Virus record (IMG/VR): IMGVR_UViG_3300008448_000052
DNA length: 64,000 nt
Source of the DNA: a virus
Strand: one strand, 5' to 3'
Numbering within the stretch: the first letter of the stretch is position 1; every line of letters begins with the position of its first letter. The notes under the pieces are model-generated. The model made no database searches. It saw only the letters and a list, made by a program, of their open reading frames with translations, and had not been told where the DNA came from. A program made the translations under genes and the position numbers. Below, piece after piece: positions 543 to 55,786 of the stretch.

Positions 543-575
543 TTAACAAGTAATAATAGAGGGATATGAATGTAT
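543..575 (+). promoter_or_regulatory. conserved phage promoter motif, copy 1 (TAACAAGTAATAATAGAGGGAT...)
   Basis: 16-nt core TAACAAGTAATAATAG is identical in 4 copies in the window; lies in the 223-bp gap upstream of the capsid gene. Confidence 0.5.
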
Positions 576-713
576 CCAAGTAATGACTAGACCCTTATCT
601 ACCCGTTTGGATGATTTGGCATCGAAAAATGAAAAAATACAACTCGTAAACATCAAAACAAAAAACACAACACAAACAAAATTTTTATATTAAAAGGTAA
701 ATAGGTAAATATT

Positions 714-1949
714 ATGGCAGCAAATAATACGTATGGTAATCCAGCGGGTACCATTGGTACATTAAACGGTCTCTTTAAAGAAGTATACGCAAAAGAATTA
801 GTTAATTTAATTCCAGATGGCGTTAAGTTACTAAACAGAATTCCATTCGCTAAAAAAGATGCGACTTTAGGTAACTTGTATCACCAACCAGTTATTCTTG
901 GTCATGAACACGGTGTCACCTTTGCTGGTGCTACTGACGATGCGTTCACATTGAATGCGGCAGTTGCGGGTTCAATCAAGGATGCACAAGTTCAAGGTAC
1001 ACAATTAGTGTTACGTTCTGTTCTTGGTATTGCGGCAGCTTCTCGTGCTTCTAATGGTGATGCAAAATCATTCATGCAAGCAACTAAGTTCCTCGTAGGA
1101 AACATGTTACGTTCTGTAACTAAAAAATTAGAAATTGAAATGTTATATGGTCAAGTTGGTTACGCTACCCTAGCGGTTTCTGCTGCGGTAACTGTTATTC
1201 CAATTCCTAATGCGGAATGGGCACCGGGCATTTGGGCTGGTTCTGAGGACATGCCAATTGAACAGCGTAATGCTGCTGGTACTTTAATAAAATCAATGAA
1301 CGTAGTTTCAGTTGACTTTACTGCTCGTACTGTTACTGTTGACGGTGCTGCTACGGCAATTACCGCAGGTGACGTATTATGGCACAAAGGTGCATACGGT
1401 AATGAATTTGCTGGTATCCACAGAATCATCACTAACACTGGTACACTATTTAACATCAATGCAACTACTTACTCTTTATTCAGAGGTAACTCTTACGCAT
1501 CAGGTGGTGTTTTAACTTTCGCAAAAGTTCAAGACGCTATCGGTAAGGCAGTTGAAAAAGGTTTAGATAATGATGTTCTCATTGTTGTAAACCCAGACGT
1601 ATGGTCTGACCTTATGGTTGAACAATCTGCATTAAGAAAGTATGACGCTTCTTACTCTGCTGATGCCGCTAAAAATGGTATGGCTAAATTGGAGTTCTTC
1701 GGTCAGAACGGTATGATCGAAATAGTACCTTCAATTTACTGCAAAACTGGTTTCGGATATGTTATTTCTCCTGACGAAATGATGCGCATTGGTTCTACTG
1801 ATGTGACGTTCAACCGACCGGGCAAAGATGGCGAATTCTTCCGCGACTTAGAAAATGCTGCGGGTTATGAATTAAGATGTTATACTGACCAGGCTTTATT
1901 TTGCTCGGCACCGGCCAAGAATGTTCTAATTACTGGTATAACTACATAG
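714..1949 (+). CDS. major capsid protein (putative)
   Basis: 411-aa ORF after the scaffold-like gene; long 5' leader; followed by a strong intrinsic terminator; Gly/Ala/Thr-rich composition typical of coat proteins. Confidence 0.55.
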   Translation: MAANNTYGNPAGTIGTLNGLFKEVYAKELVNLIPDGVKLLNRIPFAKKDATLGNLYHQPVILGHEHGVTFAGATDDAFTLNAAVAGSIKDAQVQGTQLVLRSVLGIAAASRASNGDAKSFMQATKFLVGNMLRSVTKKLEIEMLYGQVGYATLAVSAAVTVIPIPNAEWAPGIWAGSEDMPIEQRNAAGTLIKSMNVVSVDFTARTVTVDGAATAITAGDVLWHKGAYGNEFAGIHRIITNTGTLFNINATTYSLFRGNSYASGGVLTFAKVQDAIGKAVEKGLDNDVLIVVNPDVWSDLMVEQSALRKYDASYSADAAKNGMAKLEFFGQNGMIEIVPSIYCKTGFGYVISPDEMMRIGSTDVTFNRPGKDGEFFRDLENAAGYELRCYTDQALFCSAPAKNVLITGITT

Positions 1950-1969
1950 TAATATATTAAAATAATATG

Positions 1970-2004
1970 ATGCCAAGCGTAAAGAACTTGGCATTATTTT
2001 TGTT
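1970..2004 (+). terminator. rho-independent terminator after capsid gene
   Basis: Perfect 8-bp stem ATGCCAAG/CTTGGCAT, 9-nt loop, then TATTTTT. Confidence 0.65.
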
Positions 2005-2005
2005 C

Positions 2006-2034
2006 TTGACAGGGGCATAACAAAATAGTAAACT
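2006..2034 (+). promoter_or_regulatory. sigma70-like promoter for HNH gene (TTGACA-17-TAAACT)
   Basis: TTGACA at 2006-2011, 17-nt spacer, TAAACT at 2029-2034, ATG at 2041 (near-leaderless). Confidence 0.4.
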
Positions 2035-2040
2035 GAAAAT

Positions 2041-2712
2041 ATGAAAATTTGTACTAAATGTAAAATTGAAAAACCGTCCACTTGTTTTGAACATCATAAG
2101 GGCCAATGTAAGGATTGTCGAAATATTGATCGTAACAAAAGATTAAGAGCTAGAAATAATCCCGTTTCTGTTGAATCAAAAACTTGCGGAGAGTGTAAAA
2201 TAGTTAAACCTAGTTCAGAATTTCATATTTCAATCAGTAAACCAGATGGTCTAATGTGGTCTTGTAAAGCTTGTCGTAATAATAGTTTAAAACAAAGATA
2301 TAAAAATAAAAAAGAACAGATTAAAGCTAGGACTAATGCCTATTATTACGCAAATAAGGAAATAGTTTTAGAAAAACAATTGAAGCGTCAAAAAGAACGT
2401 CTTAAAACTGACGCTGAGTTTCACATAAGAAGAAAATTAAGAAATCGTCTCTATTGTGCTTTAAAACGTAAGGCATGGAAAAAAGATACAAAGTTTGCCG
2501 ACTACATTGGTTGTACTTTAGAGCATTTAAAAACCCATCTTGAAAGTAAGTTTACTGACGGTATGTCTTGGGAAAATAAAGGCAAATGGCACATTGACCA
2601 CATCATACCATTAGACTCGGCTCAAACAGTTGAAGAATTATATAAGCTTTGTCATTATACAAACCTTCAACCATTATGGGCCATTGACAACATTAAAAAA
2701 GGTGTTAATTAG
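2041..2712 (+). CDS. HNH homing endonuclease with N-terminal Cys-rich Zn-binding repeats
   Basis: Two CxxC...CxxC clusters; C-terminal HIDHIIP...N...LQPLW..N HNH motif. Confidence 0.75.
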   Translation: MKICTKCKIEKPSTCFEHHKGQCKDCRNIDRNKRLRARNNPVSVESKTCGECKIVKPSSEFHISISKPDGLMWSCKACRNNSLKQRYKNKKEQIKARTNAYYYANKEIVLEKQLKRQKERLKTDAEFHIRRKLRNRLYCALKRKAWKKDTKFADYIGCTLEHLKTHLESKFTDGMSWENKGKWHIDHIIPLDSAQTVEELYKLCHYTNLQPLWAIDNIKKGVN

Positions 2713-3137
2713 TCAAGCTTACAACAAGCTGATATGGTATAGGTTATCATTTTGTGCTGTTTGGGAATAGCCGTATAGTTTGACCAAAGGGTGATGCCTA
2801 AAAATTTATATGGCACATATTCATGACTAACTACAGTTTCAGTGCTTTCTAGAATTTCAACCTTATACCCAAGTTCTTTAAGTTTGGCAAATATGGATTC
2901 TCTTGTAACACCATAGGTAACATTTTCAACGTCTGGATATTGTCTATATGTTGAACTTAAATCGTGTTTAATGGTGTATTTACCATCATAACAAATTACG
3001 GAAGCAATTATGCTACTTACAATGTTGTCAAATGTTTGTACCTTTAGTCTAGCTTTATTGTCCTCTATTGTATGGCAAGCATCTTCGGCTATCATAAATG
3101 AACTCATTCGTACCCCATTTTCTTTGCTAAATCGCAA
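2709..3137 (-). CDS. hypothetical protein (antisense island in late module)
   Basis: 142-aa ORF, third gene of a 3-gene minus-strand unit. Confidence 0.45.
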   Translation of the reverse strand: MRFSKENGVRMSSFMIAEDACHTIEDNKARLKVQTFDNIVSSIIASVICYDGKYTIKHDLSSTYRQYPDVENVTYGVTRESIFAKLKELGYKVEILESTETVVSHEYVPYKFLGITLWSNYTAIPKQHKMITYTISACCKLD

Positions 3138-3170
3138 ACTTCTTCTTCGGTTAATATGTTTATGTTTATA

Positions 3171-3512
3171 CTAGTGTTCAAGTTCCATGTCAAGACCAGC
3201 TTCTTCATTTTCTTTAATAGAGTCTTTATGTGTTTCATATTCTAGTCCTTCGTTAATGATGGGTTTATTTTCTTCTTTTTCGATGATGAATAGTTCTCTT
3301 ACGCGAATGCCCTTATCCTTGATTGTTTCAAGTGCTACTGTTCCATCTTCTAAAAGGTAAACGGTACGCTCAATGTCCCAAGAATTAATTTTATCTATGG
3401 GTATGGTGTATGTTTTAAGTTCAGGGCTCATAATGGTTTTAGTTTGAGCATAGTACATTTGTTTTGATATGTAGCCGATGGTTTTTAGTTTTTTGGCTTC
3501 TGGTGTCTTCAT
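3171..3512 (-). CDS. hypothetical protein (antisense island)
   Basis: 113-aa ORF, acidic C-terminus. Confidence 0.45.
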   Translation of the reverse strand: MKTPEAKKLKTIGYISKQMYYAQTKTIMSPELKTYTIPIDKINSWDIERTVYLLEDGTVALETIKDKGIRVRELFIIEKEENKPIINEGLEYETHKDSIKENEEAGLDMELEH

Positions 3513-3527
3513 TTGTTCCTTTGTTCT

Positions 3528-3842
3528 TTAGTTGTGTAGTTCGTACACTATGTTGTCATCTTTATTTTCCCATTCTCCAAAGGTGACAATTTTATAACCA
3601 TAGTTGGTCTTCTCAATGAGAATGATAGGACCAGTGGCTCTAACTTCGTAACCTAGGTTGGGGGATTTATAACTAAGACAATTCTTACCGTTGTGTAAAA
3701 CAACCTCAATGGTAACATCTTCTATCGACATGTCCCATTTGCGAATTATCCTATTTTGTTCATTACTAGAATAGCGTTTAAGACGTTTGCAGTGCCTAAA
3801 TGATAGTTTCATAATGTTCATATTAAACCAGTATATACACAC
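3528..3842 (-). CDS. hypothetical protein (antisense island, first gene)
   Basis: 104-aa ORF starting 3 nt downstream of a consensus -10. Confidence 0.45.
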   Translation of the reverse strand: MCIYWFNMNIMKLSFRHCKRLKRYSSNEQNRIIRKWDMSIEDVTIEVVLHNGKNCLSYKSPNLGYEVRATGPIILIEKTNYGYKIVTFGEWENKDDNIVYELHN

Positions 3843-3868
3843 TAAAACACAAAAGCAAGGAAAATAAA
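3840..3868 (-). promoter_or_regulatory. sigma70-like promoter TTGCTT-17-TATACT driving the antisense island
   Basis: Read on the minus strand: TTGCTT (3863-3868), 17-nt spacer, TATACT (3840-3845), then 8 nt to the ATG. Confidence 0.45.
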
Positions 3869-3875
3869 TAAAAAT

Positions 3876-4313
3876 ATGAAAAAAATTACCCTAAACGAAT
3901 ACATTACTGCTTCTGGACGTTATCCAGACCGTTTAAACAGTTCTGAGTTGACAAAATCTGTTAAAACTAATGCTACTACATTGCTAGAAAAAGTCAACGC
4001 TCTATTGCTTGATTTAGGAGTTTCAGGTCCATTCAGTGTGTCCAGTGGCTTTAGACCTTCTGCGGTGAATGGTGCCACTCCTAATGCGGCTAAAGGCTCA
4101 TTACACCAGTCTGGTCAAGCCATAGATATAGTTGATGATAAGAAGCAAACCCTAGCTAAACTGGTACAGTCCAAACCAGAGCTACTTAAAAAGCATGGTT
4201 TATGGCTTGAACATCCAAATAACACCATTGGTAAGAATACAAATTGGTGCCATTTAGACATGGATAGCACAATTCGTAAAGATAGACCAGTAAGAGTGTT
4301 CATACCAGCTTAA
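3876..4313 (+). CDS. peptidase M15 family cell-wall hydrolase (endolysin or virion-associated)
   Basis: SGFRPSAVNGATPNAAKGSLHQSGQAIDI motif (H-x6-D zinc site) and downstream HLDMD, typical of Peptidase_M15. Confidence 0.7.
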   Translation: MKKITLNEYITASGRYPDRLNSSELTKSVKTNATTLLEKVNALLLDLGVSGPFSVSSGFRPSAVNGATPNAAKGSLHQSGQAIDIVDDKKQTLAKLVQSKPELLKKHGLWLEHPNNTIGKNTNWCHLDMDSTIRKDRPVRVFIPA

Positions 4314-4317
4314 AAAA

Positions 4318-4343
4318 TAACAAGTAATAATAGGGGGATGTAT
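4318..4343 (+). promoter_or_regulatory. conserved phage promoter motif, copy 2 (TAACAAGTAATAATAGGGGGATGTAT)
   Basis: 26-nt near-identical to copy 3; 12-18 nt upstream of the ATG at 4355 (or 4361). Confidence 0.55.
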
Positions 4344-4354
4344 TCTCCCAAAGG

Positions 4355-4849
4355 ATGCACATGGCTGTTCCATTGACTATTGCTGGTAATACATTTTTAT
4401 TTCCTGAAAGAGGAGAAGACCCAGATTGGTCAGGCGACACTACCGATTGGGCCACTGCGGTCACTGGTGCATTAAACACCCTATTGGGTTCAGGTGACAT
4501 TCTAAATGTTACTGCGTCCATTTCAAATAACATTGCTGTGGCAACAAATGTGAATGGATTAATCTTTAACCCGGGCACTATTAGAGCAGCAAACATCACT
4601 TATGCCATTTATCGAACATCAACTGCTAACCCTAGTGGATTTTCTGAAACTGGCACCATTTACTTAACTTACGACAATAATGCTTCGGCAGCAAACAAAT
4701 GGCTTCTTAGTCAAAATTCTGTAGGCAACTCAGGTGTAGCACTTAGCGTCCTAGATTCTGGACAAGTGCAGTATGTATCTACAGATATAAATTCAACTGG
4801 TTATACAGGTGTAATTAAATTCTCCGCCAAGGCCCTTACCCAAATTTAA
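4355..4849 (+). CDS. virion structural protein (putative)
   Basis: 164-aa ORF directly behind the conserved promoter motif, inside the structural module. Confidence 0.5.
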   Translation: MHMAVPLTIAGNTFLFPERGEDPDWSGDTTDWATAVTGALNTLLGSGDILNVTASISNNIAVATNVNGLIFNPGTIRAANITYAIYRTSTANPSGFSETGTIYLTYDNNASAANKWLLSQNSVGNSGVALSVLDSGQVQYVSTDINSTGYTGVIKFSAKALTQI

Positions 4850-4865
4850 CATTTAGGATACATAC

Positions 4866-7616
4866 ATGGCTTTTAGCTTACAAAAAATTCTTAGCGGCTT
4901 ACGAATTGTTAAAGAAAACACTTTAACTCCAACCGCTATTGAAATAGTACCTTCTGGAACTGTAAATACTAAAACTGTAGTTCAATCTTCCCAAACAGTT
5001 GATAGAACAATTACTTTACCAGATAAAACTGATACATTAGCTGGTATGACAGACATTGCTACAGGTTCGGCTGCATTAGCTGCTCACGTTGCAAACACTG
5101 CGGCTCATGGCGCTACTGGTGCCGTTGTTGGAACAACTAATACACAAACATTAACTAATAAAACCATTGATGGTGATGATAACACTATTCAAGATTTACC
5201 AATTACCGCATTAAAAACTAACATTACCGATGCTAGTAAATTTATGGTAAGAGATGCTTCGGGCATTCCTACTTCTGCAACTAAAGTAGTTCCTGCTGGT
5301 GTTGTAGTTGGCACCACTGATACACAAACCCTTACAAATAAAACTTTAACTTCACCTAGTATAACAACACCGACTGGCATTGTTAAAGGTGATGTTGGTT
5401 TAGGCAACGTAGACAACACTTCTGATGCAACTAAAAACAGTGCTGCTGTAACTCTTACAAATAAAACACTTACCACTCCTATAATTTCTCAAATATCAAA
5501 TACTGGAACTTTAACGCTACCCACTGCTACCGATACACTAGTTGGTAGAGCCACTACAGATGTACTCACAAACAAAGACATTGATGGTGGCGTGGCTTCA
5601 AATACTAGACGTTTAACTGTACCAAGTGCAGCTAAAGCTACTCTAGATACATTAACTCGTAAAGAAGCAACCATTGTTTACGCAACTGATTTAGATAAAT
5701 TATACGTTGATGATGGAACCAATTTAAATGTTGTAGGTTCTGGTGCTGGGACAATTAATTTTGTTACAAATCCTGACGCTGAAATTGGAACTACTGGTTG
5801 GACTGTTGATTCATTTGCTGCGGCATCTCGTCCTGCTGGTGCTTTTACTGGTGTCACTACTGGTATTACATTTGCTGCATCTTCTTCATCTCCTCTTGCT
5901 GGTACAAACTCATTCACTTTTGCTAAAGATGCTGTAAACAGACAAGGCCGCGTGGTTTACACTGGTCTTACATTTACTCCTGCTTACTTTGCTAGAGTGA
6001 TGAATATATCAGTAGACATGATCGTTGCCTCTGGCACGTTCGTAGCTGGTACTTCTACGACTGATTCTGACTTCATTTGGTACATACAAAACGTAACTGA
6101 TGGCACTTTCATTGAGCCAAGTAATTTTAAAATATTATCTAATAGTTCAACTAATTCATTCCAATTTACTGGTACATTCCAAACTGCGGCCAGTGCTACT
6201 TCATATCGTTTACTTGGTTATGTGGCTTCGACTTCGGCAGCGGCTTATACATTAAGATTTGATAATGTCACCGTTACGCCTAGCACTTATGCTTATGGAA
6301 CGCCGATAACGGACTGGCAAGCCTTTACTCCTACTGGTGCATTTACTACCAATACGACTTACACTGGAAGATATAGACGTGTCGGTGACTCAATAGAAGT
6401 TGCTGCGTATTTAACTTTTTCAGGCGCGCCCAACGCTGTAAATGCTAGTATAAATTTGCCTAGTGGTTTTTCGATAGATACCGATAGATTATCAAGCGGC
6501 TCTAGTACGCTGTTAAATTCCAATATAGACGGACGAGTTGACTACCTAATTTCGTCGGCATGGGCTGGTTTAGTTAAATATAACACTACCACAAGTGTGC
6601 AGCTTTACTATTTAGATGCGAATGGAAATGCAAGTCTAACTACAAATACAGTTCCACAGGCTTTTGCTTCTGGTTCTAGAGTAAACGTAACTTTTACTGT
6701 GCCAATAGTCGGTCTTTCTTCATCGGTTTTAACCAGCGATCAAACTGATACTAGGATTGTAACTGCAAGAATAAATAGAACAGGTACTCAGTCGTTAGCA
6801 AATGTAACGGCAACAAAGATACAATTTAATTCTGTAATTGATGACTCTCATGCGGCTTTTGATTCTGCAACTAACTATAGATATAATGTTGTTGTTTCTG
6901 GTTTTTATCAAATTTCTGGTTCTATTTCTTATGGAGCAAATACAACTGGTACAAGAATTGTACTCTATAGAATAAATGGTGGTGCTGACATTTATATGTC
7001 AAGCATTGGAACTGCTGATATAACAAACGAAACTGCGGTTGCTTTTTTTGCTAGAACAGCTTTCTTAAAAAGCGGCGATTATATAGAAATTTTTGGACAA
7101 CAAAATTCTGGTGGTGCTTTAAACATTACGGGAAATAGTACAGTACAATTTTCTCGCATCTCAGGCCCGAATCAAATCGCGGCAAGTGAGTCTGTTTATG
7201 CAAGATATACATCTTCAAATGCGCAAATTGTGAATAACAGCACGACTCAAGTTATAGAGTTTTCGACAAGAGACAGAGACACTCATAATGCCGTTTCTGG
7301 TACTGGTACTGGTTGGAGATTTACTGCGCCTATATCTGGATTTTATGAAGTAGATGCTACTACGATTACTGGTGGGGCAGGAACGTCTGGATATATTAAT
7401 CTTTCAATTTTAAAAAATGGAACTTTATTTTTAGAAGGTTTAAATAGCGTAGCATTCAATGCTTCTGGACAAGGTTCTAGTGTTTCGGGTGCTCTTTATT
7501 TGTTGGCTGGTGAATATATTTCAGTAGCTTTAGCTAATAACGCAACTGGCGCACAAAGAACAACAAGTGCTGTAGCAGCTCAAAATCATGTTACGATAAA
7601 AAGAGTAGGCAACTAA
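4866..7616 (+). CDS. tail fibre / receptor-binding protein with internal repeats
   Basis: 916 aa; repeated GTT(N/D)TQTLTNKT(I/L) units; Thr/Asn/Ser-rich beta-type sequence; two tandem C-terminal ~110-aa related domains. Confidence 0.6.
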   Translation: MAFSLQKILSGLRIVKENTLTPTAIEIVPSGTVNTKTVVQSSQTVDRTITLPDKTDTLAGMTDIATGSAALAAHVANTAAHGATGAVVGTTNTQTLTNKTIDGDDNTIQDLPITALKTNITDASKFMVRDASGIPTSATKVVPAGVVVGTTDTQTLTNKTLTSPSITTPTGIVKGDVGLGNVDNTSDATKNSAAVTLTNKTLTTPIISQISNTGTLTLPTATDTLVGRATTDVLTNKDIDGGVASNTRRLTVPSAAKATLDTLTRKEATIVYATDLDKLYVDDGTNLNVVGSGAGTINFVTNPDAEIGTTGWTVDSFAAASRPAGAFTGVTTGITFAASSSSPLAGTNSFTFAKDAVNRQGRVVYTGLTFTPAYFARVMNISVDMIVASGTFVAGTSTTDSDFIWYIQNVTDGTFIEPSNFKILSNSSTNSFQFTGTFQTAASATSYRLLGYVASTSAAAYTLRFDNVTVTPSTYAYGTPITDWQAFTPTGAFTTNTTYTGRYRRVGDSIEVAAYLTFSGAPNAVNASINLPSGFSIDTDRLSSGSSTLLNSNIDGRVDYLISSAWAGLVKYNTTTSVQLYYLDANGNASLTTNTVPQAFASGSRVNVTFTVPIVGLSSSVLTSDQTDTRIVTARINRTGTQSLANVTATKIQFNSVIDDSHAAFDSATNYRYNVVVSGFYQISGSISYGANTTGTRIVLYRINGGADIYMSSIGTADITNETAVAFFARTAFLKSGDYIEIFGQQNSGGALNITGNSTVQFSRISGPNQIAASESVYARYTSSNAQIVNNSTTQVIEFSTRDRDTHNAVSGTGTGWRFTAPISGFYEVDATTITGGAGTSGYINLSILKNGTLFLEGLNSVAFNASGQGSSVSGALYLLAGEYISVALANNATGAQRTTSAVAAQNHVTIKRVGN

Positions 7617-7661
7617 TATAAAACAAAATTAAAAATAATAAAAATAAGAAAAAGGAAACAA

Positions 7662-8081
7662 ATGAAACACCTAGAAAAAATGTTAACAAAAGCTCCAAAA
7701 GGAGACATGTCAAAAGATGAAATTCAAGCTAAACTTGACGTGTTAGTAGAAATGATGGATATGCTTGAAGACGAAACTGGTAGCAGTGTTAAGTCTGGTA
7801 TGGACGAAATGATGAAGCCTAAAGAGTCAAAAGAAAGCTCTAGCGTTGAAGAAAAAGATTCAATGCCTATTAAGGGTGGCAACAATGTTGGTCCTCTTGT
7901 AAAAGCTAATGCGGCTGAACCAGAAGTTGCAGACAGCGACAATGGCGGCGAAGGTATGAAAGAAGCTGTTTCAGAAAATGAAGCTGATGAATACTGTGGT
8001 CTTGACGATCAAGCTGACCATGACAGCATTTTCTCACAGAAAAAAACAAAAAAGAAAAAGTTTAGCTTCTTAGAAGACTAA
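7662..8081 (+). CDS. acidic virion-associated or assembly protein (putative)
   Basis: 139 aa, strongly acidic with a basic KKTKKKK tail. Confidence 0.45.
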   Translation: MKHLEKMLTKAPKGDMSKDEIQAKLDVLVEMMDMLEDETGSSVKSGMDEMMKPKESKESSSVEEKDSMPIKGGNNVGPLVKANAAEPEVADSDNGGEGMKEAVSENEADEYCGLDDQADHDSIFSQKKTKKKKFSFLED

Positions 8082-8103
8082 GGCTCTTTCTAGAAAGAAC
8101 CCT

Positions 8104-9054
8104 ATGTCTAACTATTACTTTACGTCAACGCAATTATTGGCGTCTATTAAACGTAGATGCCTCATTCCTGCTTCACAATCTACATTTAGTGACCAAGATT
8201 TTCTAGACTTTGCAACAGAAGAAATGAACATGGGCGTTGTCCCAACCGTAATTCAACTACATGAAGACTACTATCTTTATGAAACGCTTATTCCACTAGT
8301 AAATGGTCAAATTAAATATCAAATACCCTATCGTGCCATTGGTAATAAAACTAGAGACATTGCTTTAGTTGATAGTAATGGTGGTTATAGCGTAATGACT
8401 CGCATTGGTATTGGTGAAATTGCTACATGGAATTTCTCAAATAGCATTTATGCCTATTACATAGCTAGTAATGAAATATGTCTAGTGCCGTCTGATACAA
8501 ATACCACATTTAATGGCGGGTTTCTATCAGTGTCTTATTACCTTCGTCCAAATTCTCTAGTGCCAGATACAGAAGTTGCATCTATTACATCTATTGATAG
8601 AATAACTGGCATTATATCAGTTTCTTCATTGCCTGATACTTTTTCAACTAATACACTATTAGACTTTATTCAATTTAAGTCTCCACATAAAATTTTAAGT
8701 TTTGACGTTGCTCCTTTGTCAACCGACGCCATTGGTTCTACTATTACTTTTGATTTATCTAACATTCCAAGTTCTTTGTCAGTTGGTGATAAAATTTCAT
8801 TAGCTACTCAAACGTGCATTCCTCAAATACCTTCGGATATGCATGTCATGCTTGCTGCCAGAGTTGCTTCAAGACTACTTGAGGCTATTGGTGATACAGA
8901 AGGTTTACAAAATGCTAACCAAAAATTAGCAGAATTAGAAAACAAAACTGCAACTCTCATTAATAACCGTGTTGAAGATTCTCCTCGTCGCATTGTCAGT
9001 GCATACGGAACCCTTCGTAGTGGACTAAATCGTAGAGGTAGAGGTCGATGGTAA
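8104..9054 (+). CDS. virion structural protein (putative)
   Basis: 316-aa ORF within the structural gene run. Confidence 0.5.
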   Translation: MSNYYFTSTQLLASIKRRCLIPASQSTFSDQDFLDFATEEMNMGVVPTVIQLHEDYYLYETLIPLVNGQIKYQIPYRAIGNKTRDIALVDSNGGYSVMTRIGIGEIATWNFSNSIYAYYIASNEICLVPSDTNTTFNGGFLSVSYYLRPNSLVPDTEVASITSIDRITGIISVSSLPDTFSTNTLLDFIQFKSPHKILSFDVAPLSTDAIGSTITFDLSNIPSSLSVGDKISLATQTCIPQIPSDMHVMLAARVASRLLEAIGDTEGLQNANQKLAELENKTATLINNRVEDSPRRIVSAYGTLRSGLNRRGRGRW

Positions 9055-9063
9055 GGACGTAAC

Positions 9064-12000
9064 TTGGCTCAAAATGTTGTGCTCAAAGCATCGGGCATTC
9101 ACAGTAATAATAACTACTTTAGTGCTTCTCCAAATGGTTCATTTGAAGAAGCTGTAAATGTTGTCATTGATAGAAGTGAAATAGTAGAGCCACGTCGTGG
9201 ATTTGCTGTTTATGGCAATACAGATACGGCTAACACTAAGCAAATTATATCCTATAAAGATGCAGTCATTAAGCACTATTCTAATAAATTAAAATATGAT
9301 TCAAACAATGCTGGTGATTTTATAGATTTTACTGGTGACTTAGTAAACGAAACCGATACTGGTTTACGAATTAAATCTGTTGAAATGAATGGTAACCTAT
9401 ATTTAACTAGTTCAACTGGCATTAAAAAAATATCAGCAACTTCTTCTGCTGATTTTGCCACTACATCTATACAACCATCGGGAGCAGCAAAAGCGGTAGA
9501 CCTTAATGCTGTAACAAATTTTGCTTCATTTGGATTTCTTGAGCCAAATAGTAAAGTGGCCTATCGTTTAGTTTTTGGTAAAAAAGATGTTAACGAAAAC
9601 TTACTACTAGGCGTTCCTTCTGCTCGTGTTTTGGTATGGAACATTACTAATTATTTAACAGGACAATCTTGTGTTGTAAATTTAAACTTTTCTTTACCCA
9701 ATGCTGTTGACAACACTTATTTTTATCAACTATATAGAACTGGTTTAAGTAAAGAACCTTCGGTTAACGAACCCGCCGACCCGGGTGATGAAATGTATCT
9801 AGTTGTAGAAGATGTGGTCACCGCTGCTGATGTCACTAATGGTTTTATAAATGTTACAGACAGCACTCCAGATGACTTTAGAAGTAACGGAGCATTGCTA
9901 TATACCAATCCTGTTTCTGGTGAAGGCATAGCTCAAGCTAATGATGCTCCTCCATTTGCTAAAGACATAGCCACTTATAAGAATTTTCTATTTTATGCCA
10001 ACACTAAAACTGTGCAGCGTTTAAATTTAGCATTTTTAACGGCTACAGGCATTACTAGTGGGGCCTCTAATTTTAAAATTTTAGATGGCACCACTACAGA
10101 AACATATACTTTTCAAGGAACATTTGAAACTCAAACTATAAACTATAATGCTGTTGCTAGTCATAACGATTTTCATAATAGTGTGTCAGGCACCGCTAAA
10201 TATTTTACATTAGTTTCCGCATCAGACACTAGAAAATATTGTGTATGGTTTTACAAAACAGCATTCGATCTTGAGCCATCTTTATCAGGATACATTAATA
10301 TTAAAGTAACCGCCACTGGTTCAACTGTTGATAGTAACATGGTAGACGCCCTAGCTGCCATTACTGCCGCTACTGATGACTTTAATTTAACATTAAATAC
10401 TACAACTAACATACTTACAGCCGAAGCTTCAAATAATGGTGATGTTAGCATTACCCTATTAAATACCATTACAAATATGGTTTCGTCAAGAGACAATTTA
10501 GGTACTGGTCAAGACATTGCTACTAAAAAAATCTTTTTACCTCGTACTACTGGACTAAATGCTCCAAGTGTGTCAGTTGCTTTAGAGCAAATTGCCAAAT
10601 CTTTAGTAGATGTAGTAAATGGTAACAGTGTCATTGTAAATGGTTACTATTCGTCAGACTTTGACAGTATACCGGGTCAAATGTACTTTGAACAACAATC
10701 TGTAACTGGTGTTGCATTTTATTTAAATAGTAATGTTGGCACAGTATTTAATCCTACGGTTCCTGCTACAGGAAACACTATCATTTCAAGTAATGAAGTG
10801 AGGCCAAACCGTCTTTACTTTTCTAAAAATCAACAACCTGAATCAGTACCATTAGTTAATTATGTAGACATTGGTCCTAAAGATAGGGAAATTAAACGCA
10901 TACTAGGTTTACAAGATAGCTTGTTCATTCTTAAAGAGGATGGCATCTATCGCTTATCAGGTGATGATGCTTCTAACTTTCTAGTTACACCATTTGACTT
11001 TTCGGCTCAAGTGCTAGCTCCTGACACTGCTGTCATTTTAAATAACCAAATTTATGCATTGTCTACTCAGGGTGTCATTGTCATAACCGACACTGGGGTT
11101 TCAGTCATATCACGTCCTATTGAAAATCAAATTTTAAAAATTATTCGAGAAGGTTCTAATTATAAAACTGCATCGTTTGGTGTCAGCTATGAATCAGATA
11201 GAAGCTATTTACTATTTACCACAACCATATTAACCGACACAGTAGCTACTCAGGTTTTTCGTTATAATACATTTACCAATAATTGGACAAAATGGGACAT
11301 TTCTAAAACTTGCGGTTTAGTTAATTTTAGAGACGACAAGCTTTATTTAGGTGCTTCCGACATTAATGTCATTGAACAAGAAAGAAAAACTCTTACTCGC
11401 ATAGACCATGCCGATAGAGATTTTGAAGTTCAAATTCAATTAAATGGCGTTTCTTCTACTGGAATAAGATTGAACAGCTTATCAAATGTTAAAGTGGGCG
11501 ACACCCTTGTTCAAAGACAATATTTAACCCTTCAACAATTTAATCGGGTTTTAAAAAAATTAGATACAGACCCCACTGTTGATGACACTGATTATTTCTC
11601 AACTTTAGAACTTAATAAAGGTGAAAATGCTCGAACCAATTTAGAGGCTTTAGCAGTTAAACTAAATGCTGACCTATCTACGTCAATATACACTACTTTG
11701 ACAAATGACTATGTTAGAACTATAACAAACATTTCAGTGGCAGCTCAAACGGTTGTTACCATTGGTGCTCATAACATATCACAAGGTCGTTATATTAACA
11801 TTTCAGGTTCTAACAGTACGCCATCTATTGATGGTGAGTGGGAAGTGTTAGCTGCCACAGCAACTACCATTACCATTAATAAACGAGTAACAGTAGTGGG
11901 TACAGCGGGCACTGTACAAACAGACATTAATGATAGTAAAGATCAACAAATATGTTTTAACCTTATTGTAAACCAATTAAACATTGACACTGGTGTATTT

Positions 12001-12513
12001 TACACTAACTACTTACCTTCTTCTGGCTATCAAGATTTAGAGCAAAGTATATCAAATTTAAATAGCTTAACTACTAACATCGTAACACCTTACACTCAAA
12101 GCTTTCTATTTGGTAAAGCAAACATATATAAAGCCATTGAAAGCTATGTAGTTTACAATCCGCAATTTTTTGGTGACCCATCTGTTGAAAAACAAGTAAG
12201 TCAAAGCACTTTTATGTTTGAAGATACCAATTTTACATTAATGACAGCTTCGTTTAAAAGCGATAAATCTCCAGCATTAGGTTCTGTACCATTTGTTAAA
12301 AGTGGTAACGGTGATTTTGGTAGCTTTGCATGGGGTTCGGTAAATTGGGGTGGTGTAGGGGCTCCTGTACCATTAAGAACCCTTGTCCCGCTGGATAAAC
12401 AAAGATGTCGATTTTTAAGTGTTAAGCTATTACATAAAGTAGCTTTAGAAAACTATGCCCTATTGGGTATAACCTTAACATTCCGTCCTTACGGTAGTAG
12501 GTCGTATAAATAA
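9064..12513 (+). CDS. large virion structural protein (tail/baseplate-like), TTG start
   Basis: 1149-aa ORF; first in-frame start after the stop is TTG at 9064 with AAGGA SD upstream; beta-rich composition. Confidence 0.55.
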   Translation: MAQNVVLKASGIHSNNNYFSASPNGSFEEAVNVVIDRSEIVEPRRGFAVYGNTDTANTKQIISYKDAVIKHYSNKLKYDSNNAGDFIDFTGDLVNETDTGLRIKSVEMNGNLYLTSSTGIKKISATSSADFATTSIQPSGAAKAVDLNAVTNFASFGFLEPNSKVAYRLVFGKKDVNENLLLGVPSARVLVWNITNYLTGQSCVVNLNFSLPNAVDNTYFYQLYRTGLSKEPSVNEPADPGDEMYLVVEDVVTAADVTNGFINVTDSTPDDFRSNGALLYTNPVSGEGIAQANDAPPFAKDIATYKNFLFYANTKTVQRLNLAFLTATGITSGASNFKILDGTTTETYTFQGTFETQTINYNAVASHNDFHNSVSGTAKYFTLVSASDTRKYCVWFYKTAFDLEPSLSGYINIKVTATGSTVDSNMVDALAAITAATDDFNLTLNTTTNILTAEASNNGDVSITLLNTITNMVSSRDNLGTGQDIATKKIFLPRTTGLNAPSVSVALEQIAKSLVDVVNGNSVIVNGYYSSDFDSIPGQMYFEQQSVTGVAFYLNSNVGTVFNPTVPATGNTIISSNEVRPNRLYFSKNQQPESVPLVNYVDIGPKDREIKRILGLQDSLFILKEDGIYRLSGDDASNFLVTPFDFSAQVLAPDTAVILNNQIYALSTQGVIVITDTGVSVISRPIENQILKIIREGSNYKTASFGVSYESDRSYLLFTTTILTDTVATQVFRYNTFTNNWTKWDISKTCGLVNFRDDKLYLGASDINVIEQERKTLTRIDHADRDFEVQIQLNGVSSTGIRLNSLSNVKVGDTLVQRQYLTLQQFNRVLKKLDTDPTVDDTDYFSTLELNKGENARTNLEALAVKLNADLSTSIYTTLTNDYVRTITNISVAAQTVVTIGAHNISQGRYINISGSNSTPSIDGEWEVLAATATTITINKRVTVVGTAGTVQTDINDSKDQQICFNLIVNQLNIDTGVFYTNYLPSSGYQDLEQSISNLNSLTTNIVTPYTQSFLFGKANIYKAIESYVVYNPQFFGDPSVEKQVSQSTFMFEDTNFTLMTASFKSDKSPALGSVPFVKSGNGDFGSFAWGSVNWGGVGAPVPLRTLVPLDKQRCRFLSVKLLHKVALENYALLGITLTFRPYGSRSYK

Positions 12514-12926
12514 TGGGTAAAATACAACCACCTAAAACATTACGATTTGAAGACTTTAAGCCAGAAGAAAAGGACCTAGTCCTTAAGTTGAGTTCAGTAA
12601 TTAATTCATTCAATGATGATGTTTACCGTCAAATAAATGGTAACATTGACTTTGACAATATGAATAGACAAATAGCAGTGGGGGTAGTCATTAAGACAAA
12701 CTCTGCTGGTGTTGTTGTAAACTTGCCTCAAATTAAAATAAAAACAAATACCCTACCTAAAGGTATAAACGTCATTAATGCTGAAAATCAAACAAATTCA
12801 AGCATTTACCCCATTTCTCACCCTTTTATATCCTTTACCATTAAGAATGGCTTAATAACCATTTTAAACGTAACTGGACTTCAAGTTAGCAGTGAATACA
12901 AATTAAATTTAGAAATAATAGGGTAA
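12513..12926 (+). CDS. virion structural protein (putative)
   Basis: 137-aa ORF; ATGA-type coupling with the upstream gene. Confidence 0.45.
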   Translation: MGKIQPPKTLRFEDFKPEEKDLVLKLSSVINSFNDDVYRQINGNIDFDNMNRQIAVGVVIKTNSAGVVVNLPQIKIKTNTLPKGINVINAENQTNSSIYPISHPFISFTIKNGLITILNVTGLQVSSEYKLNLEIIG

Positions 12927-12945
12927 ACCCGCGATACCCTTAGAA

Positions 12946-12971
12946 TAACAAGTAATAATAGGGAGATGTAT
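12946..12971 (+). promoter_or_regulatory. conserved phage promoter motif, copy 3 (TAACAAGTAATAATAGGGAGATGTAT)
   Basis: Differs at 1 of 26 nt from copy 2; 35 nt upstream of the ATG at 13007. Confidence 0.55.
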
Positions 12972-13006: not shown

Positions 13007-14854
13007 ATGGTATCAGAAGACTTAAGTTTAAATAAAGACGAAGACAACAACGATGAAAACATGCAACTTTCTACAACATCAGCAGTTAGTCCTGTTAGTT
13101 CTAGAGTAGCACCAACATCTACTGGGCTTCCTGCTCAACAAGGGTCTGGGCGTTTTACCAATTTACAAAAATACATTAATGCTAACGAAGGTGCTGGTCA
13201 AAAAATTGCTAGTAAACTATCTAATGCAACAAGTTCAGATTTAAGTACTTTTGATAAGGATTATAATGCTAAAACACAAGAAATTGGTAAAGGCATTGAT
13301 GAGGCTAAAAACCTATTTAACACTCAAGGACAAGGCTTTAAATCGCAATTAGGTGCCTATCAACAAGGGTTGAATTCTTATAAAAACTTTACTGATAGAG
13401 GATTGTTTGACCAAACTGGACAAGACGTTCAAAACTTTACAAACTCGCCTCAATTTGGTCAATTTCAATCTTTACAAAGTGGCCTAGGTCTAAATGAAGA
13501 CCAACTTAAGCAATCTCAAGGATTGGCTGAAACTATGGCTAAAAACACTTTAGATAAAATTGATAAAAAGTATAGTGACATTCAAAGTGAAAAGGGTCGT
13601 TATGATTTATTGCAACAATCAACACCTTCTTTTGGACAAAGGTCTACTTCTGGTGGCAATAGATTAAATCAAATGTTTTTTCAAAAAGACCCTAATGCGG
13701 TTAATAATTTGCAGAATTCTTTTAAACAACAAGCTGCTGATGTTGCGGCTAAGAATGCCATATTGGGTACTCAGGGTGCTTCATTAAATGACATTATAAA
13801 TCAAGAAAAAACCCTTATGGGTGATTTAAATACAAATTCAAAAGCTTTACAAGAGTCTTTTTATAATAAGTTAAATTCAGAAGATGCTTTTAAACAAGTC
13901 AATGACGCTAGAAAAGGTTTATACGACGACTATATTCAACAACTTCAATCTGGTAAATATTCACAAGATTTAGCAAATTTATTAGGTGTAAGCAATTTAC
14001 AAACTTATAACCCAATGGGTAACACTCAGTCAATAAGCGATGCTGGGCCAGTTGATGCAAAATTTGCCAATGCTGGTAAAATTTCACAAATGGCAACTAA
14101 TCCTTTACAAGGACAATTTAGTACGTATAATATTAATAAGGAAAATTTACCAAATTACATATCAAAATCTGGACAAGAAGCTAAAACTTTTCAAGATGTA
14201 CTTACTCAGCCTGATTATGACTCTTACTCTGCTTTACAAAAATTGTTTGCAAATCAAGATTTTGCTAACAAAGCAAGGGGCATATCAACACTAGACCCTG
14301 CTGTTACTAAAAGTTCTTTAGCCGATTTAACTACTGATGTTAAAGCTAAGGATGATGCTTTTGTAAGAGACTACGCTAATAGGAATTATTTAAGTCAAGG
14401 TTTAGGTCAAGAAGTATATTCTCAACCAACTACATTTGGTGGAATGATTCCTACTGGCGGTACTGTTTCTATAGGCCCTAATGCTTTAGAAAATTTAGGT
14501 ATCACTGAAAACAATAGTCCATTAGCCGCAATTCAAGATTTAAGAAATAGATATTCAACGTGGAGTGGCGCTAATAGTCCATACCGAGCAGTGAGTTCAA
14601 GTTATGCTAATTTAGATGACTACATTAGAAATAGTGACAATGCCATTAAAAATCAAAACGAGTTAATGTTAAGTAGTGGTAATAGGGGCGATGAAGCAAA
14701 AGCCTTACAAAGAGCATATGAAGCATCTTATAATCCGTTAAGAGACAAATTAGAAAACATCGTAAACACTACTGGTGTTAAAAATCGTGTTGAAATTGAC
14801 CCTACTGAAAACACTGTAGAAAACAGATTTAAAAAATTTAAAGGACTATTATAA
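13007..14854 (+). CDS. Q/N-rich low-complexity virion protein (internal/ejection protein candidate)
   Basis: 615 aa; very high Gln/Asn/Ser content; directly behind promoter motif copy 3. Confidence 0.5.
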   Translation: MVSEDLSLNKDEDNNDENMQLSTTSAVSPVSSRVAPTSTGLPAQQGSGRFTNLQKYINANEGAGQKIASKLSNATSSDLSTFDKDYNAKTQEIGKGIDEAKNLFNTQGQGFKSQLGAYQQGLNSYKNFTDRGLFDQTGQDVQNFTNSPQFGQFQSLQSGLGLNEDQLKQSQGLAETMAKNTLDKIDKKYSDIQSEKGRYDLLQQSTPSFGQRSTSGGNRLNQMFFQKDPNAVNNLQNSFKQQAADVAAKNAILGTQGASLNDIINQEKTLMGDLNTNSKALQESFYNKLNSEDAFKQVNDARKGLYDDYIQQLQSGKYSQDLANLLGVSNLQTYNPMGNTQSISDAGPVDAKFANAGKISQMATNPLQGQFSTYNINKENLPNYISKSGQEAKTFQDVLTQPDYDSYSALQKLFANQDFANKARGISTLDPAVTKSSLADLTTDVKAKDDAFVRDYANRNYLSQGLGQEVYSQPTTFGGMIPTGGTVSIGPNALENLGITENNSPLAAIQDLRNRYSTWSGANSPYRAVSSSYANLDDYIRNSDNAIKNQNELMLSSGNRGDEAKALQRAYEASYNPLRDKLENIVNTTGVKNRVEIDPTENTVENRFKKFKGLL

Positions 14855-14855
14855 T

Positions 14856-15863: not shown

Positions 15864-15866
15864 ATA

Positions 15867-20163: not shown

Positions 20164-20187
20164 AACTAGTATAGAGTAGAGGGGCGC

Positions 20188-20478
20188 ATGGTAACAGATA
20201 AAATAGACAACATTAGAGAAGACATCACGGACTTAAAAGTCATAGCAGCTCGGCTTGATGAAAATTTAAAACAAAATAACGAAATATTGGATAGGTTAAC
20301 ATCGTCTGTAGAAGAACATGTTAAACGTAGTGATAATTTAGAACAAATGGTTTTATTAGATAAACAAGCACTTCAAAATAAGATTGATTCAGATAAATTA
20401 ATTTGGACAGTGTTATGTGCCGTTGGTGTTATATTTCTTGCGCTTAAAGAACTTGGGATTTTTGATAAGCTTATCTAG
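20188..20478 (+). CDS. small coiled-coil protein with C-terminal TM helix
   Basis: 96 aa; GAGGGG SD; hydrophobic WTVLCAVGVIFLAL segment. Confidence 0.4.
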   Translation: MVTDKIDNIREDITDLKVIAARLDENLKQNNEILDRLTSSVEEHVKRSDNLEQMVLLDKQALQNKIDSDKLIWTVLCAVGVIFLALKELGIFDKLI

Positions 20479-21072
20479 TAAGTCATGGGTTTTATCAGCT
20501 AGAACCATAGCAAGTTGATGAGCATTCAATTCAGACTTTTCATAAACCTGATATATAAGATGTGCCATAGGTACATCAGAAAATTTCTTGTCATATTCTT
20601 GACGAACCGATTTTACCATTTTAGAACGAAGCATAACATATTCTTTAAATGATAGTTTTTTATGATTACGCTTATCTTCAATTTGGGCAATGAGTGCATC
20701 TTCAACCAATGTAGGATTTAAAATATACCATCCGTCTTGCTTCTCGTCCAGCTTTCCTTCAATAGTATGAACAAAATTGTTAGCTTTACCCACTGTAAAA
20801 ATATCAGAATTACGTTTATTATTAGCATCATAGCAAGCCTTTGCTAGTTCGTTTGTACTGTGTAGGTAACCATTCATTACTCTACCATTCTTTTTATGAA
20901 CAGCGCCACCTACATATTCATCAGTAAATTGGGCTAACCATTTAAGTTCTTCTGCATTCAGTTTATGTAAATAATCATAGTCTAGTAGTTCTCGCCTAAC
21001 CTTAGTATTTTCAGCAGGGTTAAGACTTTCATAGCGAACGTTTTGCTTCAAAGCTTTTTTTCTAGGTTTCAT
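20413..21072 (-). CDS. hypothetical protein
   Basis: 219-aa ORF; its 3' end overlaps the convergent + gene by 66 nt. Confidence 0.45.
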   Translation of the reverse strand: MKPRKKALKQNVRYESLNPAENTKVRRELLDYDYLHKLNAEELKWLAQFTDEYVGGAVHKKNGRVMNGYLHSTNELAKACYDANNKRNSDIFTVGKANNFVHTIEGKLDEKQDGWYILNPTLVEDALIAQIEDKRNHKKLSFKEYVMLRSKMVKSVRQEYDKKFSDVPMAHLIYQVYEKSELNAHQLAMVLADKTHDLLDKLIKNPKFFKRKKYNTNGT

Positions 21073-47219: not shown

Positions 47220-47221
47220 CC

Positions 47222-48893: not shown

Positions 48894-48909
48894 GTTATGT
48901 CCTTTTTAT

Positions 48910-55589: not shown

Positions 55590-55710
55590 ATGTCCTCCTT
55601 GACTTGTTATAACTAGTTTATACTGGTTTTATAAAAATGCAACATAAAAACAAATATTCTTAAATGATGCTGGGCGTTTAGCTAGGTGCATTATAAAGAA
55701 AACACTTTAT

Positions 55711-55737
55711 TAACAAGTAATAATAGAGTAGCCTATG
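55711..55737 (+). promoter_or_regulatory. conserved phage promoter motif, copy 4 (TAACAAGTAATAATAGAGTAGCC), plus strand inside minus-strand block
   Basis: Same 16-nt core as copies 1-3; no + strand gene follows. Confidence 0.45.
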
Positions 55738-55757
55738 CGTTTTACCTATTTTCATCA

Positions 55758-55786
55758 TTGACAATGGGCATTAAAAGACATATACT
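55758..55786 (+). promoter_or_regulatory. consensus sigma70 promoter TTGACA-17-TATACT on + strand
   Basis: TTGACA 55758-55763, 17-nt spacer, TATACT 55781-55786; fires toward the iteron array. Confidence 0.5.

What the first reader, a model, noticed from the sequence alone, without database searches (positions are those of the whole stretch)
543..12971. Four copies of a perfectly conserved 16-nt core TAACAAGTAATAATAG (two copies 26-nt near-identical) - a phage-specific promoter class ending in a T7-like ATAGGGAGA
Copies at 543-575, 4318-4343, 12946-12971 (all + strand, in intergenic gaps immediately upstream of late/structural genes) and 55711-55737 share TAACAAGTAATAATAG exactly. Copies 2 and 3 read TAACAAGTAATAATAGGG(G/A)GATGTAT. 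The 3' half (TAATAATAGGGAGA) resembles the initiating region of single-subunit T7-class RNAP promoters (..TATAGGGAGA). Alternatively the TAATAAT element could be an extended -10 for a phage late sigma (T4 gp55-style), with no -35. Either way it defines the late regulon, and it predicts that a cognate RNAP or sigma factor is encoded outside this window.
Basis: seen in the sequence. Interest (0 to 1): 0.7.

Follow-up and report, generated by a model that had tools for sequence, protein, structure and literature searches.

The report
Compact late-gene promoter of a novel phage
A 16-base sequence repeated exactly seven times, always on the same strand and almost always in front of virus-particle genes, is most likely the late-gene promoter of an uncultured freshwater phage family, but the genome encodes no recognisable polymerase or sigma factor to read it.

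Summary
TAACAAGTAATAATAG occurs four times exactly in the window, all on the + strand. After I closed the 85.8-kb genome from overlapping contigs, there were seven copies and none on the - strand. Six copies head packaging or structural gene blocks, and two of these lie in divergent gaps where a + strand promoter is needed. The seventh copy (55711) lies in a 585-nt non-coding gap.

In 71 related phage contigs a family motif, T-TAACAA(C/G)T followed by 6-7 AT-rich bases and a purine, occurs at 220 sites, 216 of them on the capsid-gene strand. A distant relative carries a variant at three orthologous places.

Start codons lie as close as 13-16 nt after the first base of the motif. The transcription start must therefore fall at about position 14-17 (the A/G of ..ATAG), and many relatives would produce leaderless mRNAs.

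A separate class of about 17 TTGACA-N17-TA(A/T)ACT sites serves early and middle genes.

The T7-like reading fails on gene content: the closed genome has no RNA polymerase gene, and the only sigma-like hit is an orphan 64-aa region-4 fragment.

Best reading: a compact promoter without a -35 element, read by host core polymerase plus an unidentified phage factor. It is a new variant of a known kind.

The parts
543..559 (+). Motif copy (tTAACAAGTAATAATAG), 155 nt upstream of the major capsid gene ATG at 714
   Evidence: Exact match; sequence; capsid gene = PHROG major head protein. 29 of 43 relatives have a family-motif site within 700 nt upstream of the capsid gene.
4318..4333 (+). Motif copy, 22-28 nt before the start (4355/4361) of a conserved ~160-aa late gene. 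It heads the block 4355-12926.
   Evidence: In relatives the orthologous gene starts 14-20 nt after motif position 1, and the N-termini align exactly.
12946..12961 (+). Motif copy, 46 nt before the ATG at 13007. It heads the block 13007-20478. This is the only copy that reads ATAGGGAGA.
   Evidence: A weak hairpin GGGTA-N9-TACCC lies just upstream.
55711..55726 (+). Orphan motif copy in the 585-nt non-coding gap 55590-56174 between - strand genes. It points the same way as the sigma70-like promoter at 55758-55786, towards a hairpin plus T-run at 55987-56035.
   Evidence: No + strand ORF follows it and there is no Rfam match.
55758..55786 (+). TTGACA-N17-TATACT, one of about 17 host sigma70-type promoters. 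This is the contrasting early/middle promoter class.
37226..37420 (-). 64-aa ORF consisting of a sigma70 region-4 helix-turn-helix (…YTLEELAKRHNITRERIRQI…). It is the only sigma-related sequence in the genome and is probably unrelated to the motif.
   Evidence: Pfam Sigma70_r4, E 3e-9. Identified by phmmer against RpoD. Best PDB matches are RpoD/SigA region 4. No homologue other than itself in 5.8 billion proteins.
20413..21072 (-). 219-aa family-conserved protein of unknown function, the last gene of the - strand unit. Tested as a candidate late factor; the result was negative or inconclusive.

Best explanation
The 16-mer is the late-gene promoter of this phage. It is compact, lacks a -35 element and abuts the transcription start.

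Anatomy:
- The recognition core is TAACAA(G/C)T, at about -14 to -7.
- Six AT-rich bases follow (AATAAT in this phage) and serve as the melting region.
- Transcription starts at the purine of ..T-A-G (motif position 15-16).

How the programme runs:
- Early and middle genes use host sigma70-type TTGACA-N17-TA(A/T)ACT promoters.
- Late in infection, host core RNA polymerase is redirected to the seven motif copies by a phage-encoded specificity factor that I could not identify. The logic is that of T4 gp55 or phiEco32 gp36.
- This switches on the packaging, head and tail genes.
- The orphan copy at 55711 would drive a short non-coding transcript, or prime or activate an origin, in the 55.6-56.2 kb gap.

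Shown: the copies, their strand and positions, their conservation in the family, the upper bound on the start site, and the absence of any detectable RNAP gene.

Inferred: promoter function, the start site, late timing, and the nature of the factor.
For: 1. Seven exact copies in the closed 85,820-bp genome, all on the + strand and none on the - strand. Chance gives at most 2 copies of any 16-mer.

2. Six copies sit directly ahead of late gene blocks: the packaging operon, portal, capsid, the 4355 block, the 13007 block and the fibre-like block. Two of them are in divergent gaps whose left neighbours are - strand genes, so + strand transcription has to begin there. The gap holding the 7th copy has no sigma70-like + promoter.

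3. A family position-weight matrix finds 220 sites in 71 relatives plus this genome, 216 of them on the capsid-gene strand. The information peaks on T-TAACAA(C/G)T, then an AT-rich run, then 85-88% purine at positions 15 and 17.

4. A distant relative (L079) has TAACAAGTGTATRTAG at three orthologous places, one of them back-to-back with a reverse-complement TTGACA exactly as here.

5. The distance from the motif to the start codon has a sharp floor at 13-16 nt, and the N-termini align. In this phage the Shine-Dalgarno sequence follows the motif directly in two copies. The start site therefore lies at or before about position 17.

6. Positions 9-16 are more alike within a genome than between genomes (0.534 vs 0.442; 0 of 500 permutations reach the observed value). 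The control positions 17-24 show no such effect. This is the signature of a co-evolving cis/trans pair.

7. A separate, clearly host-type promoter class serves the other genes.
Against: No sigma factor, gp55/gp33-like protein or RNAP was detected by Pfam, PHROGs, PDB sequence search or motif scanning. The best positional candidate, the 219-aa protein, has no sigma-like fold. The only sigma-like ORF is an orphan region-4 fragment absent from relatives.

There are no transcript data, so promoter activity, timing and the start site are all inferred.

Leaderless late mRNAs in the relatives are unusual for a host whose genes otherwise show Shine-Dalgarno sequences.
Confidence: 0.55

Rival explanations
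1. The promoter is read by a phage-encoded RNA polymerase of a type too divergent to recognise: T7-like in logic, with a contiguous motif of about 16 nt ending at the start site followed by a G-rich initial transcript.
For: The architecture matches single-subunit and other non-canonical phage RNAP promoters:
- The motif is contiguous, lies next to the start and has no -35 element.
- It shows genome-specific tuning.
- Five of seven copies have ATAG followed by a G-rich run.
- The family reads AACA-(8N)-T-R, reminiscent of the AR9 non-virion RNAP late promoter AACA-(6N)-T-A/G, where the last base is the start site (PMC5312081).
- Several large ORFs (916, 1149, 968, 615, 511, 459 aa) have no annotation at all.
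Against: There is no PF00940 hit and no other RNAP hit in any long ORF of the closed genome. T7 motifs A/B/C are absent. The only DxDGD-type motif (DFDGD) lies in a 375-aa nuclease. The unannotated large ORFs sit in the virion module and are themselves behind the motif, so they would be late products; a late-gene polymerase has to be made earlier. The 511-aa and 459-aa ORFs are short for a polymerase.
Confidence: 0.15
2. The promoter is read by unmodified host holoenzyme, either housekeeping sigma used in an extended -10 mode or a host alternative sigma, possibly helped by a phage DNA-binding activator.
For: In this phage AGTAATAAT resembles an extended -10 element TGnTATAAT, matching 6 of 8 specified positions (read from the sequence). 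No phage sigma was found. The core begins with TTAACA or ATAACA, close to a -35 hexamer.
Against: A -10 at positions 9-14 puts the start near position 21. That is inside or beyond the Shine-Dalgarno sequence of two copies here, and downstream of the start codon in at least 24 sites in relatives. The family-conserved part is TAACAA(C/G)T, not the -10-like half. No conserved hexamer lies 16-18 nt downstream of TTAACA. The motif matches no host sigma consensus that I know of (from memory, not tested). The genome-specific tuning argues for a phage-encoded reader.
Confidence: 0.15
3. It is not a promoter but an RNA-level signal in late mRNAs: a site for processing, for a translational regulator or for translational enhancement.
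For: In many relatives the motif sits where a ribosome-binding region would be, 13-20 nt before the AUG. It is strictly on the sense strand. One copy overlaps the terminase stop codon inside a co-directional gene run.
Against: Distances to the start codon range from 11 to over 160 nt, with ordinary Shine-Dalgarno sequences in between in this phage. Two copies lie in divergent gaps where no upstream + strand transcript is expected. One copy has no ORF downstream. There is no consistent secondary structure around the copies.
Confidence: 0.1
4. It is a DNA-level site unrelated to transcription, such as a packaging, replication or recombination signal, or a mobile cassette.
For: Seven identical 16-mers could reflect recent spread. 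One copy lies in a gap with iteron-like repeats.
Against: The flanks are unrelated. The positions are orthologous in distant relatives that carry a diverged motif. The strict co-orientation with genes at 216 of 220 sites is not expected for such signals.
Confidence: 0.05

Closest known systems
T4-type late promoters (TATAAATA read by gp55 with gp33 and the gp45 clamp)
   Same: A short AT-rich element in the -10 region and no -35 element. It marks all late (virion) genes. It is read by host core polymerase carrying a phage factor (established knowledge). An 8-nt core ending about 6-7 nt before the inferred start fits the geometry.
   Different: The core sequence is TAACAA(G/C)T, not TATAAATA. 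No gp55, gp33 or clamp homologue was detected. The motif is longer (16 nt identical within the genome).
phiEco32 middle/late promoters (AATGTA centred at -11.5, read by the phage sigma gp36 with gp79)
   Same: A single-element promoter read by a phage factor (PMC12276001). The phage has SU10/phiEco32-like adaptor and portal signatures. Early genes use host sigma70.
   Different: The core sequence differs. No gp36-like sigma with regions 2 and 4 was found. ATGTAT occurs after only 3 of the 7 copies, at variable distance, and cannot exist in two copies whose ATG is too close.
T7-class single-subunit RNAP promoters (TAATACGACTCACTATAGGGAGA)
   Same: A contiguous conserved motif that ends at the start, with …ATAG followed by GGGAGA in one copy. 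It shows genome-specific variants. An orphan copy lies in a non-coding region, as with the T7 replication promoters phiOL and phiOR (from memory).
   Different: The closed genome has no single-subunit RNAP gene. The GGGAGA is not conserved and partly serves as the Shine-Dalgarno sequence.
AR9 non-virion RNAP late promoters, AACA-(6N)-T-A/G with the last base as the start (PMC5312081)
   Same: An AACA block followed by an AT-rich spacer and T-purine at the inferred start. The promoter is compact, and the paper notes that phage transcripts are often leaderless.
   Different: The spacer is 8 nt, not 6. There are no beta/beta'-like genes, the genome is 86 kb rather than a jumbo genome, and nothing indicates uracil-DNA.

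Membership tests
T7-class single-subunit RNAP promoter | The phage encodes a T7-like single-subunit RNA polymerase (Pfam PF00940; motifs A, B, C) | tested here: not met
   The genome was closed to 85,820 bp. No RNAP family hit in any ORF scanned or in the precomputed Pfam of the flanks. A regex for T7 motifs found nothing credible.
T7-class single-subunit RNAP promoter | A conserved contiguous motif of about 20 bp spanning the start, with no -35 element | tested here: met
   16 nt are identical in 7 copies. The start is bounded to at or before about position 17 by start-codon and Shine-Dalgarno positions. No conserved upstream or downstream hexamer.
T7-class single-subunit RNAP promoter | Initiation at the G of …TATAG | not testable with these tools
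   Needs 5'-end mapping. Only purine enrichment at positions 15-17 is seen.
T4-type late promoter (gp55/gp33) | TATAAATA element at -10 | tested here: not met
   The core is TAACAA(G/C)T; it matches TATAAATA at 4 of 8 positions.
T4-type late promoter (gp55/gp33) | gp55-like sigma and gp33-like co-activator genes | tested here: not met
   No PHROG or Pfam match to late sigma or accessory proteins among all ORFs scanned. Very divergent homologues cannot be excluded.
T4-type late promoter (gp55/gp33) | No -35 element; located before late virion genes | tested here: met
phiEco32-type gp36 promoter | A phage-encoded sigma70-family factor with regions 2 and 4 | tested here: not met
   Only a 64-aa region-4 fragment was found. 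It has no homologues in relatives.
phiEco32-type gp36 promoter | AATGTA centred at -11.5 | tested here: not met
   Absent from the 16-mer. ATGTAT follows only 3 of 7 copies, at variable distance.
Host sigma70 promoter | TTGACA-like and TATAAT-like hexamers 16-18 bp apart | tested here: not met
   There is no information 16-18 nt downstream of TTAACA in the family matrix. The genome has a distinct class that does meet this feature.
AR9/phiKZ non-virion RNAP late promoter | Split beta/beta'-like multisubunit RNAP genes, and AACA-(6N)-T-A/G | tested here: not met
   No RNAP genes (as above). The spacer is 8 nt, not 6.

The most novel reading that the evidence does not exclude
A widespread family of uncultured freshwater phages of about 85 kb uses a previously undescribed transcription specificity system. 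This would be either a new sigma-like or appropriator protein with no detectable similarity to known ones, or a new small RNA polymerase. It reads a TAACAA(G/C)T-N6-T-R promoter and, in many members, starts late mRNAs directly at the AUG (leaderless late regulon).
Probability: 0.3. Interest if true: 0.7.

Novelty: new variant of a known kind. Interest (0 to 1): 0.5.

Why it matters
The motif gives a ready-made map of the late regulon for a large, uncultured and almost unannotated phage family: more than 70 contigs in IMG/VR, with no megablast hit among cultured phages.

Because no polymerase or sigma factor can be found by sequence or fold, the motif is a handle for discovering a new transcription factor class, for example by DNA-affinity capture or by co-variation between motif variants (G, C or T at positions 6-7) and phage proteins.

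The near-leaderless arrangement in relatives predicts an unusual mode of late-gene translation.

If the factor turns out to be an ordinary divergent sigma, the finding is a routine phage late promoter.

Tried and rejected
**Looking for the same or related genomes**
- Megablast of 14 kb against cultured phages: no match.
- tblastn of the capsid and terminase proteins: only about 28% identity, to a Silvanigrella element and to Pelagibacter, Arthrobacter and Microbacterium phages.
- Exact-sequence scans of viral and metagenome collections to extend the contig: nothing.
- The search for related loci with the RNA ligase and the terminase as single queries: nothing.
- The genome was finally closed through a homologue look-up of the Rnl2 ligase.

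**Looking for an RNAP or sigma factor**
- Pfam and PHROGs on essentially all ORFs.
- Catalytic-motif regex.
- phmmer with RpoD regions 2-4 against all 379 ORFs.
- PDB sequence search of four large or unknown ORFs.
- The only hit was the orphan 64-aa region-4 ORF.

**Testing the 219-aa terminal gene as the late factor**
- It is conserved in the family, but no fold match was found.

**Other checks**
- Conserved 5' hairpins or upstream terminators at the copies: three copies have a small hairpin right after the motif, but it is not general.
- Rfam on the gap after copy 55711: no family. Folding gave a weak signal only (z -2.4 and +0.2).
- Literature search for the core sequence: only unrelated primer hits.
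- The - strand family-type site at 40512 lies inside a coding sequence and was set aside as chance or an internal site.
Full report
**Observation**

TAACAAGTAATAATAG occurs exactly at 544, 4318, 12946 and 55711, always on the + strand. Hits with three mismatches are at chance level (6 found, 2.8 expected). From base composition I expect about 3e-4 exact copies. In 100 Markov-1 simulations no 16-mer occurred more than twice. It is the most repeated 12-16-mer of the genome. The flanks of the four copies are unrelated, except that copies 4318 and 12946 share 25 of 26 bases.

**Context**

The window is from a novel phage. There is no megablast hit among 50,697 phage records, and the capsid and terminase proteins reach only about 28% identity to anything cultured.

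- Genes 1-20.4 kb are on the + strand and structural: a major head protein at 714-1949 and an SU10-like adaptor at 8104-9054.
- Genes 20.4-62 kb are on the - strand and cover replication, recombination, NAD salvage and RNA repair.
- From 62.8 kb on there are small + strand genes.

I extended the window on both sides with contigs that carry identical proteins. L072 shares 4947 of 4951 overlapping bases with the window and L073 shares 3537 of 3537. L076 then bridged the two ends. The result is a closed genome of 85,820 bp.

**More copies**

The 21.8 kb outside the window holds three further exact copies, again on the + strand.

- One lies in the divergent gap that heads the small-gene/terminase operon.
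- One overlaps the terminase stop codon, 14 nt before the portal ATG.
- One lies in the divergent gap that heads a block of fibre-like, Ser/Thr/Gly/Asn-rich proteins. It reads TAACAAGTAATAATAGGGGAGACACCATG and sits back-to-back with a - strand TTGACA-N17-TAAACT.

That gap has no sigma70-like + strand promoter. In total there are seven copies and none on the - strand. Six of them head late gene blocks.

**Family conservation**

A search with the capsid protein returned 71 related IMG/VR loci at 52-68% identity.

- A loose pattern derived from the motif matched 42 times on the capsid-gene strand and once on the other.
- An iterated weight matrix found 220 sites, 216 of them on that strand.
- The information is concentrated on T-TAACAA(C/G)T. 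Then come 6-7 AT-rich positions, then T, then 85-88% purine at positions 15 and 17.
- 29 of 43 loci have a site within 700 nt upstream of the capsid gene.
- A more distant relative (L079, RNA ligase 43% identical) carries TAACAAGTGTATRTAG at three orthologous places: the divergent gap next to a reverse-complement TTGACA, before the packaging operon, and across the terminase end before the portal gene.
- Positions 9-16 are more alike within a genome than between genomes (0.534 vs 0.442; 0 of 500 permutations). Control positions 17-24 are not.

The second half of the motif is therefore tuned genome by genome. This is expected if the reader of the motif is encoded by the phage.

**Where transcription must start**

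Distances from motif position 1 to the next start codon have a sharp floor at 13-16 nt in relatives. For the ~160-aa gene family orthologous to window 4361-4849, the N-termini align exactly at those start codons. In this phage a Shine-Dalgarno sequence follows the motif directly in the portal copy and in the fibre-block copy.

The start site must therefore lie at or before about position 17, and the purine peak points to position 15-16 (the A/G of ..ATAG). This places TAACAA(G/C)T at roughly -14 to -7. It also means many relatives make leaderless or nearly leaderless late mRNAs. All of this is inferred; no transcript data were available.

**A second promoter class**

About 17 sites of TTGACA-N17-TA(A/T)ACT precede - strand genes, the small + strand genes beyond 62.8 kb, and a homing-endonuclease gene at 2041. 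The host therefore uses ordinary sigma70-type promoters, and the 16-mer is a distinct class.

**Who reads the motif**

No RNA polymerase was found.

- Pfam found no RNAP hit in any ORF of 314 aa or more that I scanned, and PHROGs annotated none of the structural-module ORFs as a polymerase.
- The precomputed Pfam of all flank genes shows none.
- T7 motifs are absent. The only DxDGD-type motif (DFDGD) lies in a 375-aa PD-(D/E)XK nuclease and is taken as coincidental.
- The large unannotated virion proteins have no PDB sequence match.

No sigma factor was found either. The one exception is a 64-aa ORF at 37226-37420 (-) that is a bare sigma70 region-4 helix-turn-helix. Its recognition helix TRERIRQI is identical to that of RpoD.

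**Interpretation**

The best-supported reading is a compact late promoter without a -35 element, read by host core polymerase plus an unidentified phage factor (confidence 0.55). This is the logic of T4 gp55 and of phiEco32 gp36, whose promoters have AATGTA at -11.5 (PMC12276001).

The rivals are:

- an unrecognisable phage polymerase (0.15);
- host holoenzyme, with or without an activator (0.15);
- an RNA-level signal (0.10);
- a non-transcriptional DNA site (0.05).

Its TAATAAT-as-(-10) variant fails because that half is not the conserved part, and because it would place the start downstream of many start codons. The family form AACA-(8N)-T-R resembles the AR9 late promoter AACA-(6N)-T-A/G (PMC5312081). 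The spacing differs, however, and the required polymerase genes are absent.

**The orphan copy at 55711**

This copy lies in a 585-nt gap without ORFs. It sits 47 nt upstream of a near-perfect sigma70-type promoter on the same strand (55758-55786). A 17-bp-stem hairpin with a T-run follows at 55987-56035, and then two 35-nt direct repeats.

The predicted RNA 55793-56035 folds only modestly better than shuffles (z -2.4). No Rfam family matches. By inference, this is a short non-coding RNA made both early and late, or transcription that activates an origin, comparable to the orphan T7 promoters at replication origins.

**Verdict**

The feature is real and strongly non-random, and it is very likely the late promoter class of a new phage family. 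It is a new variant of a known kind. The open and interesting part is the missing reader.

Noticed in passing
window 37226-37420 (-): A 64-aa ORF that is a free-standing sigma70 region-4 helix-turn-helix, with recognition helix TRERIRQI identical to RpoD. It sits behind its own TTGACA-N17-TATACT promoter (37704) and a tRNA-like gene. It has no homologue other than itself in 5.8 billion proteins. It may be a captured host rpoD fragment, or a decoy or competitor for -35 recognition.
   Followed up: partly
window, about 17 sites, e.g. 2006, 22453-, 25357-, 35196-, 37704-, 40613-, 50925-, 55758, 62803, 63056: A second, very uniform promoter class, TTGACA-N17-TA(A/T)ACT, precedes early and middle genes on both strands. 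The host therefore uses canonical sigma70-type promoters, not the Bacteroidota type.
   Followed up: partly
window 55590-56174: A 585-nt non-coding gap. It holds a sigma70-like + promoter, a long hairpin with a T-run (55987-56035) and two 35-nt direct repeats (56039-56073 and 56111-56145; GTCACCC.AGCGAA…GGCGATAG.GA). It may encode a non-coding RNA or be a replication origin. No Rfam match.
   Followed up: partly
window 25347-28435 (-): The family B DNA polymerase appears split into two ORFs (26855-28435 and 25347-26213) by a GIY-YIG/NUMOD3 homing-endonuclease gene (26206-26877).
   Followed up: no
window 45732-50445 (-): A cluster of an AAA/STAND-like ATPase (495 aa), a ThiF/E1-like protein (261 aa), a weak Prok-JAB match (314 aa; Pfam E 0.0025, 18.1 bits, below the 25-bit cut-off) and an unannotated 511-aa protein. 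It resembles a ubiquitin-like conjugation or deconjugation module.
   Followed up: no
window 35110-38710 (-) and 41516-43879 (-); L073 9145-12874: NAD salvage genes (NAMPT and a PRPP-synthetase-like protein) and a full RNA-repair set: a Pnkp-like kinase/phosphatase/ligase of 787 aa, an Rnl2 ligase and a CCA-adding enzyme. These are probably counter-defence functions.
   Followed up: no
window 37440-37509 (-): A tRNA called by Rfam (50.8 bits) but not by ARAGORN.
   Followed up: no
window 2041-2712 (+), with a promoter at 2006-2034: An HNH/endonuclease VII-like gene with its own TTGACA-N17-TAAACT promoter, inserted between the capsid gene and the next late gene. Together with three small - strand ORFs (2709-3842) it interrupts a gene order that is contiguous in relatives.
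   Followed up: partly
window 28437-29204 (-): A Mom-family protein (Pfam E 1.4e-27), which suggests that the phage DNA is modified.
   Followed up: no
window 40497-40512 (-): A family-consensus-type site, TTTAACAACTATTTAAAG, on the - strand inside the ORF 40233-40538. It scores 17.8 bits with the family matrix and is either chance or an internal promoter.
   Followed up: partly
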